A program made the position numbers and the translations under genes. A stretch of DNA of 52,113 nt from a virus (Duplodnaviria; Heunggongvirae; Uroviricota; Caudoviricetes), in the IMG/VR virus record IMGVR_UViG_2541047719_000006; one strand, written 5' to 3'. Of this stretch, positions 16,523-17,814 are shown one piece after another (positions within the stretch are counted from its first letter, which is position 1; the number at the start of each line of letters is the position of its first letter). The notes below the pieces were generated by a model. That model was not told where the DNA came from, did not search any database, and saw only the letters and a program-made list of their open reading frames with translations.

Positions 16523-16618
16523 AAAAGCATTGCAAAATGAGCCACAAACTGCTTCAATTTCGGTACGCTTCGCATAGCTGTATCGCGAGGCAAATTAAGC
16601 GCATGAACTTTAATACAA

Positions 16619-16645
16619 CCCGCCATTGAGCGGGTTTTGTTGTTT
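16619..16645 (+). terminator. Candidate tR'-like terminator downstream of Q
   Basis: CCCGC-cattga-GCGGG followed by TTTTGTTGTTT, about 95 bp after Q stop. Confidence 0.45.
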
Positions 16646-16884
16646 CTGTGGCGTGATATCAGAAACGACATTTAATAATCGCCTTCAAAATAAATTTGTT
16701 TATACATTGTCATGTATATTTTAAGTGAAAGTGAATTATTCACATAAAATAAAAACACATAAATAAATTTACATAACTTGACGCAAAGTGTTGTTGCGAT
16801 TGGAATATTAAATCGTATCATCGAAAACGGTTCTGAGGGGGAACTCTTCTTTGCTCGGTGATATCGCTCCCCTGAAGAACCAAT

Positions 16885-16960
16885 GCCGACTTAGCTCAGT
16901 AGGTAGAGCAACTGACTTGTAATCAGTAGGTCACCAGTTCGATTCCGGTAGTCGGCACCA
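16885..16960 (+). tRNA. tRNA-Thr (anticodon TGT)
   Basis: 76 nt ending CCA; 7-bp acceptor stem GCCGACT/AGTCGGC; anticodon stem ACTGA/TCAGT with loop CTTGTAA; GGTAGAGC D-arm and TTCGATT T-loop. Confidence 0.75.
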
Positions 16961-16963
16961 TAT

Positions 16964-17038
16964 GCGGGTATCGTATAATGGCTATTACCTCAGCCTTCCA
17001 AGCTGATGATGCGGGTTCGATTCCCGCTACCCGCTCCA
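16964..17038 (+). tRNA. tRNA-Gly (anticodon TCC), glyT-like
   Basis: 75 nt ending CCA; acceptor GCGGGTA/TACCCGC; anticodon stem TCAGC/GCTGA with loop CTTCCAA; nearly identical to remembered E. coli glyT. Confidence 0.8.
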
Positions 17039-17399
17039 GCATTTGAAACAAGCCTTATTGTATTGCGGCACTGGCGTATTTTTTTATTACGTGGGAGCAG
17101 GTTGTTTTGAAAAAGCATTCTGTTCTCTGGCTATGATTTGAGGCCGGGTGTAGCCTCAGTGCTGATTTTTTACGGCAGCAGAATGGTGCATTATCGGTGG
17201 AGATTTTGTATTTCCTGGCAGGGTCGGTGATGCATCATTCTGGTGTTGTAAAAGCACCGCAGAGGCGTTCCTCAGGGCGAGGGTGGTTTAAAGAGTCGGT
17301 TTAGCGGGAAACCACAGTATCCATACGGCACGGAATACTTCGGGAGGCACCCGACACCTCGGTTTTATAACAATTAAATAATTCATCCCTTAATTGACC

Positions 17400-17425
17400 A
17401 ACCGCCGTATCAGGCGGTTTTTTTT
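17400..17425 (+). terminator. Rho-independent terminator in the tRNA-to-holin leader
   Basis: CCGCC-gtatca-GGCGG followed by T8. Confidence 0.55.
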
Positions 17426-17814
17426 ATTCCTTTCTCAGGACAAAAAAATACACGAGCATCCAGGAATACTCGTGGGACAACGTCCTTTGGATAGCAATTT
17501 GCGAGAGGGTGAAAAGTAGCGCGGTCGTCGGATTAAGACCGCGGGACAAAGTCCATGAAGAAGAATAAGTATCGGTCTCCTTCCGGAGACGAGTTGATAT
17601 TACTAAGCTTTAAAAATGGTTTAAATCCTCAGATCAACCTTAATTTCAGATAAGGTTTATTTCATTTTCTCCGCGTCACATCCGACGCACATCACATCAG
17701 ATAACACCACACAAAAGGCATCTGCGGGTGTCTTTGACGGGGTGTTTTTTACGGGCCGCTGGTGGCCATTTTTTGTTTCCATTACACAGCGCCCGCATCT
17801 GCGAGGTGGGGGTT

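What the first reader, a model, noticed from the sequence alone, without database searches (positions are those of the whole stretch)
16523..17814. Q-terminator-tRNA-long structured leader before the holin: a Stx-phage-like moron slot that is empty
After Q comes a terminator-like hairpin (16619..16645), two tRNA genes, then about 780 bp with no ORF of 60 codons or more on either strand, a strong terminator (17400..17425) and several stem-loops (CGCGGTC...GACCGCG near 17519..17542; GTCTCC-ttcc-GGAGAC near 17575..17592) before the holin start. In Stx phages the equivalent interval holds tRNA genes and stxAB. Here it may hold only regulatory RNA, a small RNA, or the scar of a lost cargo gene.
Basis: partly seen in the sequence, partly recalled or inferred. 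Interest (0 to 1): 0.5.

Follow-up and report, generated by a model that had tools for sequence, protein, structure and literature searches.

The report
Prophage toxin slot holding regulatory RNAs
The gap between the late-gene activator Q and the lysis genes of this E. coli prophage has no protein cargo, but it carries two tRNA genes joined to a conserved, unannotated ~385-base structured RNA distantly related to the small RNA next to Shiga toxin genes, plus a likely small RNA on the opposite strand.

Summary
The Q gene is followed by a hairpin terminator, tRNA-Thr(UGU), tRNA-Gly(UCC), 776 bp with no ORF above 42 codons, a strong terminator at 17400, and stem-loops before an S21-type holin.

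The position does match the stx slot of Stx phages, and a sister phage with the same Q module carries a protein gene there. But the interval is neither a scar nor merely a leader.

From the tRNA-Gly end to the 17400 terminator (about 17039-17426, + strand) lies a conserved multi-domain RNA. In 31-34 non-redundant homologues (49-97% identity), 96% of cells pair, against 36-55% in slid controls. Between 18 and 22 pairs show compensatory changes, and many G-U pairs mark the + strand.

Its 3' ~200 nt has the architecture of Rfam STnc100 (EcOnc27/sRNA103, related to PasD). Divergent homologues score 27-39 bits on that model (threshold 47), the window copy does not score, and my model hits Sakai STnc100.

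A convergent minus-strand unit (about 17590 to 17441) sits where AsxR, AgvB and PasA sit. The first hairpin matches the Stx-phage tR'.

Verdict: a new variant of the known prophage late-region sRNA scaffold. Expression and function are untested.

The parts
15986..16522 (+). Late-gene antiterminator Q (context; left border of the slot)
   Evidence: Pfam DUF1133 at 341.8 bits and PF06530 Phage_antitermQ at 28.2 bits. Annotated 'antitermination protein Q' in phages 683R6 and 666R9.
16530..16558 (+). pR'-like late promoter candidate (TTGCAA-17 nt-TTCAAT). Inferred only.
   Evidence: Read from the sequence. TTG at -35 and TTCAAT at -10 are kept in 683R6 and 666R9. The conserved post-Q module 16543-16648 is shared at about 90% identity by phages with other cargo.
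16617..16646 (+). tR'-like intrinsic terminator. Together with the promoter candidate it would give an ~80-nt StxS/6S-like short transcript.
   Evidence: Terminator scan. The hairpin AACCCGCC-N5-GCGGGTTTT is invariant in four other post-Q regions, including Sakai Sp5, where it lies 46-72 nt after Q. In Stx phages the pR'-tR' transcript is the sRNA StxS (PMC7873438).
16794..16821 (+). Sigma-70 promoter-like site for the tRNA/RNA unit (TTGCGA-16-TATCAT), preceded by a very A+T-rich stretch
   Evidence: Promoter scan, 9 of 12 matches. It aligns column for column with TTGAAA-16-TAATAT upstream of the tRNAs of phage SerU-LTIIb, although the surrounding sequence differs.
16829..16881 (+). Leader hairpin directly 5' of tRNA-Thr (GGTTCTGAGGGGG...CCCCTGAAGAACC)
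   Evidence: Read from the sequence. Conserved in 683R6 and, with changes, in SerU copy 1.
16885..16960 (+). tRNA-Thr (anticodon UGU)
   Evidence: ARAGORN; Rfam tRNA 73.8 bits.
16964..17038 (+). tRNA-Gly (anticodon UCC)
   Evidence: ARAGORN; Rfam tRNA 65.6 bits. The structured RNA starts a fixed ~185 nt after the tRNA-Gly T-arm in 87 of 96 copies.
17039..17426 (+). Whole tRNA-linked structured RNA (about 385 nt), running from the tRNA-Gly 3' end to the terminator
   Evidence: RNAalifold on 31 homologues gives 80 pairs, 22 with compensatory changes. The + strand MFE is -137 kcal/mol (z -4.4); the minus strand is -96 kcal/mol (z -1.5). No Rfam family matches at E <= 10.
17067..17163 (+). Domain 0: closing helix GGCACUG/CAGUGCU enclosing two small hairpins
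   Evidence: The closing helix is nearly invariant. Inner hairpins covary: pair 65-81 is GC 24 / AU 4, pair 66-80 is UA 21 / CG 6, and pair 121-145 is GC 20 / AU 10.
17169..17252 (+). Domain 1: long irregular hairpin (~28 bp plus an apical GGAGAU-UUUGU-AUUUCC hairpin). Shared by 'type A' and 'type B' variants.
   Evidence: helix 2: 22 pairs, 96% paired, 6 with compensatory changes, and many G-U pairs that would be C-A on the other strand. The 25-mer at 17199-17223 is exact in 91 viral contigs.
17262..17360 (+). Domain 2: multi-helix junction, the STnc100-like core. Closing helix GAGGCG/CACCUC, four hairpins, the last being UCGG-GAGGCAC-CCGA.
   Evidence: helices 4-8: pair 181-284 is CG 16 / UA 16. 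Covariance model R1 hits Sakai STnc100/EcOnc27 at 20.5 bits, E about 1e-4 to 1e-3. The Rfam STnc100 model aligns the same helices in homologue L101. The window copy has a C-A mismatch at 17266/17356.
17361..17399 (+). A/U-rich single-stranded linker ending in the conserved AUUGACCAA
   Evidence: Unpaired in the consensus structures. The motif ATTGACCAACCGCC is conserved in most type A copies.
17400..17429 (+). Strong intrinsic terminator of the sense RNA (AACCGCC-GTATCA-GGCGGTT plus T8)
   Evidence: Terminator scan. Present in all 34 homologues with variable loops.
17441..17592 (-). Candidate antisense sRNA (~150 nt), convergent with the sense RNA. Its terminator stem is 17474-17451 with a U tract at 17450-17441.
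   Evidence: Minus-strand terminator with 10 pairs, two of them G-U that are C-A mismatches on the + strand (and read from the sequence). The block 17441-17560 is nearly invariant in 28 unique homologues while the flanks vary. Fold z = -3.7. Present in 370 of 5426 E. coli genomes and never annotated.
17597..17625 (-). Promoter-like site for the antisense unit (TTTAAA-17-TAATAT on the minus strand). Inferred.
   Evidence: Read. Both hexamers fall in the two conserved islands (GGTTTAAATC and ACTAAGCTT) of an otherwise variable stretch.
17673..17777 (+). Holin-proximal leader: hairpin GCGTC-ACATCC-GACGC, a compound hairpin plus U6 (about 17700-17750), and terminator-like GGCCGCTGGTGGCC plus ATTTTTTG (17754-17777)
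   Evidence: 17701-17781 is shared with the Stx2e phage phiP27 just before its holin, and 17761-17811 with cdtI, mEp460 and Ayreon, where it is annotated 'terminator'.
17815..18030 (+). S21-type (pin)holin with MKSM dual start (right border of the slot)
   Evidence: Pfam PF04971, 121 bits. Followed by a lysozyme (PF00959) and Rz.

Best explanation
The interval is a non-coding 'moron' inside the Q-antiterminated late operon of a Rac/lambda-like prophage.

(1) A pR'-like promoter just after Q is stopped at a tR'-type terminator (16617-16646). In a lysogen this would yield a short StxS/6S-like RNA.

(2) A separate sigma-70-type promoter (16794-16821) drives tRNA-Thr(UGU), tRNA-Gly(UCC) and, on the same transcript, a ~385-nt structured RNA that ends at the strong terminator at 17400. 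The 3' ~200 nt of that RNA are a diverged member of the STnc100/EcOnc27/sRNA103 (PasD-related) group of Hfq-binding prophage sRNAs. This part comprises a multi-helix junction with a conserved GAGGCAC loop, an A/U-rich linker, and a terminator with a U8 tail. The two 5' domains, one of them a ~28-bp hairpin, are specific to this tRNA-linked lineage. They most likely serve as the processing and stability platform that separates the tRNAs from the sRNA.

(3) A convergent ~150-nt minus-strand sRNA (about 17590 to 17441) occupies the position that AsxR, AgvB and PasA hold in EHEC and EPEC prophages.

(4) The sense RNA's own terminator and two more terminator-like hairpins just before the holin keep lysis genes silent while the tRNA/sRNA unit is expressed. 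After induction, Q-modified RNA polymerase starting at pR' reads through all of them.

Shown here: the features themselves, the RNA structure and its strand, linkage to tRNA-Gly, the resemblance to STnc100, and cargo exchange in the slot.

Inferred: the promoters, co-transcription, processing, Hfq dependence, trans-acting function, and expression of the antisense RNA.
For: Structure and strand:
- 59 pairs are 96.3% paired, against 36-55% when partners are slid.
- 18 pairs and 69 cells have changes on both sides, against 5-10 pairs and 6-17 cells in slid controls. 0 of 500 shuffles reach the observed value.
- The extended alignment gives 80 pairs, 22 compensatory.
- The + strand folds at z -4.4 and the minus strand at z -1.5.

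Not coding:
- No ORF exceeds 42 aa.
- ORFs annotated in relatives differ in frame and strand and run through terminators.
- Pfam is empty.

Linkage to tRNA-Gly:
- 87 of 96 copies lie about 185 nt after the T-arm.
- The order is the same in eight annotated loci.

STnc100 relationship:
- R1 hits Sakai 5451-5571, inside RF02076 at 5423-5628.
- RF02076 hits homologues L101, L004, L016, L094 and L100 at 27-39 bits, E 4e-5 to 0.04, across the full model. The closing helix, hairpins, GAGGCAC loop and terminator line up.

Scaffold:
- Sp5 has tR' - tRNAs - stx - STnc100 (+) / AsxR (-).
- PasD2 (+) and PasA (-) show the same layout in E2348/69.

Other points:
- Convergent terminators and a nearly invariant antisense block.
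- The tR' hairpin is shared with Sp5.
- Cargo polymorphism in the slot.
Against: - There are no expression data for this locus. All promoters are consensus-level guesses: the antisense one matches 8 of 12 positions and the pR' -10 lacks the usual A at position 2.
- The Rfam STnc100 model does not hit the window copy even at E <= 10, and the homologues stay below the gathering score.
- The R1 hit on Sakai is only 20.5 bits, from a roughly calibrated model.
- R1 does not hit PasD2.
- The antisense candidate has no similarity to AsxR, AgvB or PasA, and its helices vary too little for a covariation test.
- A -10-like TATGAT (17132-17137), conserved in divergent copies, leaves open a separate promoter for the RNA.
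- No target could be predicted. Duplex energies with local translation-initiation regions are no better than shuffles.
Confidence: 0.6

Rival explanations
1. A purely cis-acting leader. The conserved structures would be only terminators, insulators, RNase processing sites and stabilisers for the tRNA transcript and the late mRNA, with no trans-acting RNA product.
For: Terminator-like sites are enriched, 8 against 2.2 expected. The RNA is always physically tied to tRNA-Gly. The ~28-bp hairpin of Domain 1 is long enough to be an RNase III site (the length requirement is from my general knowledge). No trans target was found.
Against: A multi-helix junction with an invariant loop and covarying stems is more than termination needs. 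The 3' part resembles STnc100/EcOnc27 and PasD, which are stable, Hfq-bound RNAs with many RIL-seq partners (PMC4104026, PMC8550237). Type A and type B variants swap the 3' domain while keeping the terminator, as expected for an effector module.
Confidence: 0.2
2. A scar of a lost cargo gene: a degraded toxin or other moron ORF, now drifting.
For: The position equals the stx slot. A sister phage has a 189-aa ORF here. Some relatives have annotated 86-147-aa 'hypothetical proteins' over the region.
Against: Those ORFs lie in different frames and strands, cross intrinsic terminators and have no Pfam match. Substitutions preserve base pairs, not codons. One-base indels are common. DNA searches find no similarity to any annotated protein-coding gene in the phage collection.
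Confidence: 0.03
3. One or more small proteins are encoded, for example the 32-aa ORF at 17555-17653 (+) or the 35-aa ORF at 17197-17304 (+).
For: The 32-aa ORF is kept with its stop codon in many homologues, and about half of its differences from 683R6 are synonymous.
Against: A 1-nt deletion breaks this frame in at least 10 homologues, the L104 group together with L049, L071 and L002. There is no convincing Shine-Dalgarno sequence. The 35-aa frame is broken by indels in SerU copy 2 and lies inside covarying helices. Pfam is empty.
Confidence: 0.05
4. DNA-level module boundaries. The conserved blocks, especially 17700-17814 and 16543-16648, would be linker sequences that promote homologous recombination between mosaic lambdoid phages rather than RNA elements.
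For: The holin-proximal 50-80 bp recur before different holins and after different cargo in phiP27, cdtI, mEp460 and SerU-LTIIb. The post-Q module recurs with different cargo.
Against: This does not explain strand-specific G-U pairing or compensatory changes in 17039-17426. It is compatible with, rather than exclusive of, the RNA explanation for the flanks.
Confidence: 0.1

Closest known systems
STnc100 (Rfam RF02076), also known as EcOnc27 (O157 Sakai Sp5) and sRNA103 (EDL933); related to PasD1/PasD2 of EPEC E2348/69
   Same: - A sense-strand RNA in the Q-to-lysis interval of a lambdoid prophage, ending at an intrinsic terminator that faces an antisense sRNA.
- The same core: a closing helix around several hairpins, the last carrying the loop GAGGCAC (CCGG-GAGGCAC-CCGG in Sp5, UCGG-GAGGCAC-CCGA here), then a linker and a terminator.
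- Reciprocal sub-threshold covariance-model hits link the two sets.
   Different: - The Rfam model does not detect the window copy, and homologues score 27-39 bits against a threshold of 47.
- Nucleotide similarity is limited to an 18-nt motif.
- This lineage has about 190 nt of extra conserved 5' structure (Domains 0 and 1) and is fused to tRNA-Thr/tRNA-Gly instead of following stx2B or Q.
- A type B subfamily replaces the STnc100-like core altogether.
- Hfq binding, the 235/247-nt species and the effects on fimZ and espA are known only for EcOnc27/sRNA103 (PMC4104026, PMC12711010).
Anti-sRNAs AsxR and AgvB (RF02703, RF02702) and PasA/PasC: antisense partners of the late-region sRNA dyads
   Same: A small unit on the strand opposite the late operon, with its own terminator placed tail to tail with the sense RNA's terminator and lying upstream of the holin. 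The gap is 8 nt in Sp5 and about 20 nt here.
   Different: There is no sequence or covariance-model similarity. The predicted length is about 150 nt, against 51-60 nt for AsxR and AgvB. Its promoter, expression and any sponge activity are untested here.
StxS / lambda 6S RNA: the short pR'-to-tR' transcript
   Same: A terminator hairpin about 95 nt after Q whose stem (AACCCGCC...GCGGGTTTT) is identical to the one after Q in Sakai Sp5. A promoter-like site lies about 60 nt upstream of it.
   Different: The Q protein is of a different family (DUF1133). The body of the putative ~80-nt RNA is unrelated to the Sp5 sequence. The transcription start is not mapped.
3'ETS-leuZ type tRNA-trailer sRNAs (from my own knowledge: Lalaouna et al. 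2015)
   Same: A regulatory RNA that lies directly 3' of the last tRNA of an operon and ends at the operon terminator.
   Different: 3'ETS-leuZ is about 50 nt and is a host RNA. Here the trailer is ~385 nt, multi-domain and phage-borne. Co-transcription is inferred, not shown.
ROOL / GOLLD large RNAs (from my own knowledge: often next to tRNAs in prophages of Firmicutes and relatives)
   Same: A large conserved structured RNA adjacent to tRNA genes in a prophage, with unknown function.
   Different: Neither Rfam model matches. This RNA is much smaller (385 nt against 580-800), its host range is restricted to Escherichia, and part of it is clearly sRNA-like.

Membership tests
Rfam STnc100 (RF02076) | Covariance-model score at or above the gathering threshold (47 bits) | tested here: not met
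   The window gives no hit at E <= 1 over 2.4 kb or at E <= 10 over 0.8 kb. Homologues of the window RNA score 27.3-39.2 bits, E 4e-5 to 0.04. The positive control, Sakai Sp5, scores 207.7 bits.
Rfam STnc100 (RF02076) | Core architecture: a closing helix enclosing several hairpins, the last one C/UCGG-GAGGCAC-CCGG/A, then a linker and an intrinsic terminator | tested here: met
   Consensus structure with covariation. The R1 alignment to Sp5 and the RF02076 alignment to L101 superpose these elements.
Rfam STnc100 (RF02076) | Location on the sense strand between Q/pR' and the lysis genes of a lambdoid prophage | tested here: met
   Window layout. Sp5 and E2348/69 PP2 layouts.
Rfam STnc100 (RF02076) | Stable Hfq-bound transcript | not testable with these tools
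   Known for EcOnc27 and PasD only (PMC4104026, PMC8550237). No expression data exist for this locus.
Late-region sRNA dyad (Tree et al. 2014) | Convergent sense and antisense units with tail-to-tail terminators downstream of pR' and upstream of the lysis genes | tested here: met
   Terminators at 17400-17419 (+) and 17474-17451 (-). The same arrangement is found at Sp5 5593-5622 / 5630-5650.
Anti-sRNA AsxR/AgvB (RF02703/RF02702) | Covariance-model match, with the conserved 42-nt 3' region and a length of 51-60 nt | tested here: not met
   No hit at E <= 10. blastn with word size 7 finds nothing. The predicted RNA is about 150 nt.
PasA/PasC (EPEC) | Sequence similarity to E2348/69 PasA | tested here: not met
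   blastn with word size 7 of 16523-17814 against L106 gives only 12-15-nt chance matches.
Moron (Juhala et al. 2000; definition from my own knowledge) | Presence/absence or replacement polymorphism between otherwise collinear phages | tested here: met
   Phage 666R9 has the same Q module and a trkG-flanked lysis cassette, but a 189-aa ORF in place of the tRNA/RNA block. In SerU-LTIIb the module sits behind a methylase gene and is duplicated.
Moron (Juhala et al. 2000; definition from my own knowledge) | Own promoter and own terminator | tested here: inconclusive
   The terminator is clear. The promoter is only a 9-of-12 consensus match whose position is conserved in SerU copy 1. No transcription start data exist.
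Stx-phage toxin slot | tRNA genes downstream of Q/pR'-tR' and upstream of the cargo | tested here: met
   The tRNA identities differ: Thr and Gly here, Ile-Arg-Arg in Sp5. Related loci carry Ile-Arg/Lys-Thr-Gly.
Stx-phage toxin slot | Toxin (or other protein) cargo between the tRNAs and the sRNA dyad | tested here: not met
   No ORF exceeds 42 aa. The RNA begins directly after tRNA-Gly.
ROOL / GOLLD | Rfam covariance-model match | tested here: not met
   Neither family appears among the matches.

The most novel reading that the evidence does not exclude
The whole ~385-nt tRNA-linked RNA may be a distinct, previously undescribed structured RNA class whose conserved 5' Domains 0 and 1 do something beyond Hfq-type base pairing. 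Candidate roles are a dedicated platform that couples phage tRNA maturation to release of interchangeable sRNA 'effector' modules (type A being STnc100-like and type B unrelated), or a protein- or nuclease-binding decoy that acts with the phage tRNAs. In either case it would be an enterobacterial counterpart of the tRNA-adjacent large RNAs of other prophages.
Probability: 0.15. Interest if true: 0.7.

Novelty: new variant of a known kind. Interest (0 to 1): 0.42.

Why it matters
- The regulatory-RNA scaffold described around Shiga toxin genes (StxS-type tR', tRNAs, an STnc100/EcOnc27-type sense RNA and an antisense partner) also exists, in diverged and unannotated form, in non-Stx prophages. 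These include prophages of enteroaggregative (042), avian and extraintestinal (APEC O1) and LT-II enterotoxigenic E. coli. About 8% of complete E. coli genomes carry it.
- The analysis supplies a covariation-supported alignment for an RNA that Rfam 15 and RefSeq miss, and that annotators sometimes call a hypothetical protein.
- A tRNA-sRNA fusion with swappable 3' modules makes a concrete question testable: how do phages package and express regulatory RNAs from the cargo slot?
- EcOnc27 variation has recently been linked to clinical outcome in O157 (PMC12711010), so a wider view of this RNA group is useful.

Tried and rejected
- **Rfam.** Four scans covered the interval, the whole window and related loci. 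Only the tRNAs, RalA and sok reach threshold in the window. The weak microRNA-precursor hits merely reflect the long hairpin.
- **Literature search for the invariant 17-mer** found nothing.
- **Protein-coding readings.** Small and annotated ORFs give no Pfam family and have inconsistent frames. The 32-aa ORF is frameshifted in many homologues.
- **PasB.** I considered it because the literature places it in EAEC/ExPEC strains like those this window matches (E. coli 042, APEC O1). I rejected it because it is described as embedded among phage structural genes (bioRxiv 10.64898/2026.05.13.724894).
- **PasA, AsxR and AgvB homology of the antisense unit** was rejected.
- **A separate promoter for the sense RNA.** A conserved -10-like TATGAT/TATAAT is present, but there is no conserved -35 or extended -10. 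This is left open.
- **Target prediction** by RNAduplex against the holin, endolysin and Q translation-initiation regions and against the sense RNA was no better than shuffles, z from -1.3 to +2.3.
- **Species scan.** A three-motif pattern over one genome per species found only Escherichia ruysiae, plus a Rubrivivax MAG hit that the covariance model did not confirm.
- **An RNAalifold pairing of 17050-17054 with 17416-17420** was disregarded because it competes with the terminator stem.
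Full report
**What the window is.** The finding lies in an intact lambdoid prophage of E. coli. The 1292-bp interval is 99.8-99.9% identical to E. coli 042, APEC O1 and a few other genomes. The window also carries RalA and sok RNAs and trkG directly after the lysis cassette, so this is a Rac-like phage.

The genes around the interval are:
- DUF1367, a YbcO nuclease, and a Q antiterminator at 15986-16522 (DUF1133 plus a weak PF06530 match);
- an S21-type holin at 17815-18030, a lysozyme and Rz.

**Check of the observation.**
- A 7-bp G+C-rich hairpin with a T-rich tail at 16617-16646.
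- tRNA-Thr(UGU) at 16885-16960 and tRNA-Gly(UCC) at 16964-17038.
- 776 bp (17039-17814) whose longest ORFs are 41-42 codons on either strand.
- A strong terminator at 17400-17419 plus T8.
- The two named stem-loops, at 17520-17544 and 17575-17590.

Terminator-like sites are enriched, 8 against 2.2 +/- 1.4 in shuffles. Both halves of the interval fold better than every shuffle, at z -4.4 and -4.2.

**The interval is conserved, and always tied to tRNA-Gly.** The 17140-17430 segment occurs in 433 of 5426 complete E. coli genomes, at 70-100% identity, and is almost never annotated. An invariant 25-mer (17199-17223) is found in 91 viral contigs.

In 87 of 96 copies the element starts a fixed ~185 nt after the T-arm of a tRNA-Gly. 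Every annotated locus I opened shows the same order:
- Q or a methylase gene;
- tRNAs (Ile/Arg/Lys optional, Thr, Gly);
- the element;
- optional protein morons (TerB/DUF3927);
- the holin.

Even copies on IncF plasmids sit behind a decayed tRNA. A scan of one genome per species found the three-motif signature only in Escherichia ruysiae. A second hit, in a Rubrivivax MAG, was not confirmed by the covariance model.

**It is a structured RNA on the + strand.** I aligned 34 non-redundant copies (49-97% identical to the window) with MAFFT, without any structural guidance. RNAalifold predicted 56 pairs.
- With the terminator added, 59 pairs are 96.3% paired, against 36-55% when the 3' partners are slid by 1-3 columns.
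- 18 pairs and 69 cells show changes on both sides, against 5-10 pairs and 6-17 cells in the slid controls. None of 500 column shuffles reaches the observed covariation.
- One long-range pair exists as C-G in 16 sequences and U-A in 16.
- Many pairs are G-U in a large share of sequences, which would be C-A mismatches on the other strand.
- The + strand folds at -137 kcal/mol (z -4.4) and the complement at -96 kcal/mol (z -1.5).

Extending the alignment back to the tRNA adds a further domain, for 80 pairs in all, 22 of them compensatory.

In window coordinates the RNA consists of:
- Domain 0 (17067-17163): a GGCACUG/CAGUGCU helix around two covarying hairpins.
- Domain 1 (17169-17252): a ~28-bp irregular hairpin capped by GGAGAU-UUUGU-AUUUCC.
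- Domain 2 (17262-17360): a closing helix around four hairpins, the last being UCGG-GAGGCAC-CCGA.
- An A/U-rich linker (17361-17399).
- The terminator (17400-17429).

The window copy carries one C-A mismatch in the closing helix of Domain 2. A 'type B' subfamily keeps Domains 0-1 and the terminator but has a short, unrelated 3' domain.

**It is not a gene remnant.**
- ORFs annotated over it in relatives (105 aa on the minus strand, 86/119 aa and 137/147 aa on the plus strand) differ in frame and strand and run through intrinsic terminators.
- Pfam finds nothing in them.
- One-base indels are frequent.
- The best small ORF (32 aa, 17555-17653) is frameshifted in at least ten homologues.

**What it is related to.** Rfam 15 reports only the tRNAs in this interval, even at E <= 10. 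The literature, however, describes exactly this layout.
- Hfq cross-linking in O157 Sakai found convergent sRNA pairs in the 'moron' site downstream of pR' in eight prophages. One example is EcOnc27 (sense, ~235/247 nt) facing AsxR (antisense, 54 nt) after stx2B (PMC4104026).
- A review notes that stxAB is 'bookended' by StxS (the pR'-tR' transcript) and this dyad, and that the reason for the arrangement is unclear (PMC7873438).

I fetched the Sakai Sp5 region. There EcOnc27 is Rfam STnc100 (207.7 bits) and AsxR lies 2 nt beyond it on the other strand.

A covariance model of Domain 2 built from my alignment (R1) hits Sp5 at 5451-5571, inside STnc100. The score is 20.5 bits, with E about 1e-4 in 10 kb and 1e-3 in 100 kb. 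The closing helix, a long hairpin and the GAGGCAC hairpin are aligned.

In the other direction, the Rfam STnc100 model gives full-length sub-threshold hits (27-39 bits, E 4e-5 to 0.04, gathering score 47) on six divergent homologues of the window RNA. Each hit covers the 3' ~200 nt. The alignment to L101 superposes helix on helix.

The 3' part of the RNA is therefore a diverged relative of STnc100/EcOnc27/sRNA103. A 2026 preprint links that family to PasD of EPEC by the same kind of structural argument (bioRxiv 10.64898/2026.05.13.724894). R1 does not reach PasD2. Formal membership in RF02076 fails for the window copy.

**The antisense unit.** The minus-strand terminator has a 10-bp stem, two of whose pairs are G-U only on that strand, followed by UAUUUUUUU.
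- Upstream of it on the minus strand, 17441-17560 is nearly invariant in 28 distinct homologues, while the next 130 bp vary.
- Within that variable part, the two conserved islands coincide with a TTTAAA-17-TAATAT promoter-like site at 17625-17597.
- The predicted ~150-nt RNA starts with a hairpin that shows compensatory changes. It has a CU-rich single-stranded stretch and folds at z -3.7.
- The block occurs in 370 of 5426 genomes, unannotated.
- It has no similarity to AsxR, AgvB or PasA, so it is a positional analogue only. Its expression is inferred.

**The flanks.** The first hairpin has the same stem (AACCCGCC...GCGGGTTTT) as the hairpin that follows Q in Sakai Sp5 and in two other Q modules, so it is the tR' equivalent. 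With the TTGCAA-17-TTCAAT site at 16530-16558 it would give an ~80-nt StxS/6S-like RNA. This is inferred.

The 106-bp post-Q module recurs at ~90% identity in phages that carry other cargo. Phage 666R9 has the same Q and this module, followed by a 189-aa ORF and a different holin. That demonstrates cargo exchange in this slot.

A promoter-like site (TTGCGA-16-TATCAT, 16794-16821) follows a very A+T-rich stretch. It aligns with TTGAAA-16-TAATAT in front of the tRNAs of SerU-LTIIb.

The last ~110 bp before the holin contain two terminator-like hairpins. They are shared with the Stx2e phage phiP27 and with the cdtI, mEp460 and Ayreon phages.

**Most likely mechanism.**
- The tRNA genes and the structured RNA form an autonomous, non-coding transcription unit with its own promoter and terminator, embedded in the late operon.
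- In the lysogen it would supply two tRNAs and an STnc100-type, probably Hfq-binding, sRNA. The long Domain 1 hairpin is a plausible processing site between them.
- The antisense unit would be the second member of the dyad.
- The series of terminators (tR', the terminator at 17400, and two before the holin) keeps the lysis genes off until Q-modified polymerase from pR' reads through.
- The structure, its strand, the linkage to tRNA-Gly and the family resemblance are shown here. Promoters, co-transcription, processing, Hfq binding and trans-action are inferred.

**Verdict.** Its reading is partly supported. The slot is indeed the stx-equivalent slot without protein cargo, but it is occupied by conserved RNA genes rather than being empty or a scar. 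The kind of system is known, namely the late-region sRNA scaffold of lambdoid prophages.

What is new is the diverged, Rfam-invisible, tRNA-fused ~385-nt form with two extra covarying domains and swappable 3' modules. It is present in about 8% of E. coli genomes, outside the EHEC/EPEC strains in which such RNAs were described. I score interest at 0.42.

Noticed in passing
window 1557-1735 (+) and 13375-13550 (+): Rfam RalA (RalR antitoxin sRNA, 215 bits) and sok (119.6 bits) both score above their gathering thresholds. Together with trkG this marks the prophage as an intact Rac-like phage.
   Followed up: no
window 19108-20583 (+): A TrkG/TrkH potassium transporter gene (PF02386) sits directly after Rz. 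This is a protein moron on the other side of the lysis cassette, also present in phages 683R6 and 666R9.
   Followed up: partly
window 17266 / 17356: The window's copy of the RNA has a C-A mismatch in the Domain 2 closing helix. Relatives have either C-G (16 sequences) or U-A (16 sequences). It looks like a recombinant or intermediate between the two covarying states.
   Followed up: partly
L002 (phage SerU-LTIIb) 1122-2016 and 3028-3560: The LT-IIb enterotoxin phage carries two tandem tRNA-plus-RNA modules, one Arg-Gly and one Thr-Gly, each in front of a holin gene. The LT-II genes lie after the endolysin, not in the Q-proximal slot.
   Followed up: partly
L094 and L102 (IncF plasmids p4422IncF, pD217IncF); L101 (plasmid p48B2a): Diverged copies of the RNA (~55-60% identity to the window in the alignment) lie on plasmids among IS remnants. 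On the two IncF plasmids (L094, L102) the copy sits behind a decayed tRNA and in front of a DMT transporter gene. On p48B2a (L101) an IS2 lies directly upstream and no tRNA is annotated. These diverged copies are among those that score best on the Rfam STnc100 model.
   Followed up: partly
L016 665-863 and 2115-3210: A viral contig carries isrK (78.7 bits) and the C4 antisense RNA with its a1/b1 target. About 1.3 kb downstream lie two tandem copies of the structured RNA, the first behind a decayed tRNA-Gly.
   Followed up: no
L001 3690-4007 (-), L095 3087-3500 (+), L096 3020-3280 (+): Public annotations place 'hypothetical protein' CDSs across the RNA and its terminator. These look like mis-annotations.
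   Followed up: yes
window 16543-16648: The post-Q module (candidate -10, initial transcribed region, tR') is ~90% identical in several phages, including a record named Actinobacillus phage vB_Apl-pPE4. That host assignment is surprising for an E. coli-type sequence.
   Followed up: no
window 7002-7120 (-): A weak hit of the Domain 2 covariance model (14.6 bits, E 0.06) elsewhere in the prophage. Probably chance.
   Followed up: no
window 16885-17038: The phage tRNA pair is 95-99% identical to host tRNA genes in almost all E. coli genomes (5421 of 5426 genomes match). In Salmonella records the matching host genes are annotated tRNA-Tyr, tRNA-Thr and tRNA-Gly. This suggests capture from the host thrU-tyrU-glyT cluster (gene names from my own knowledge).
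   Followed up: no
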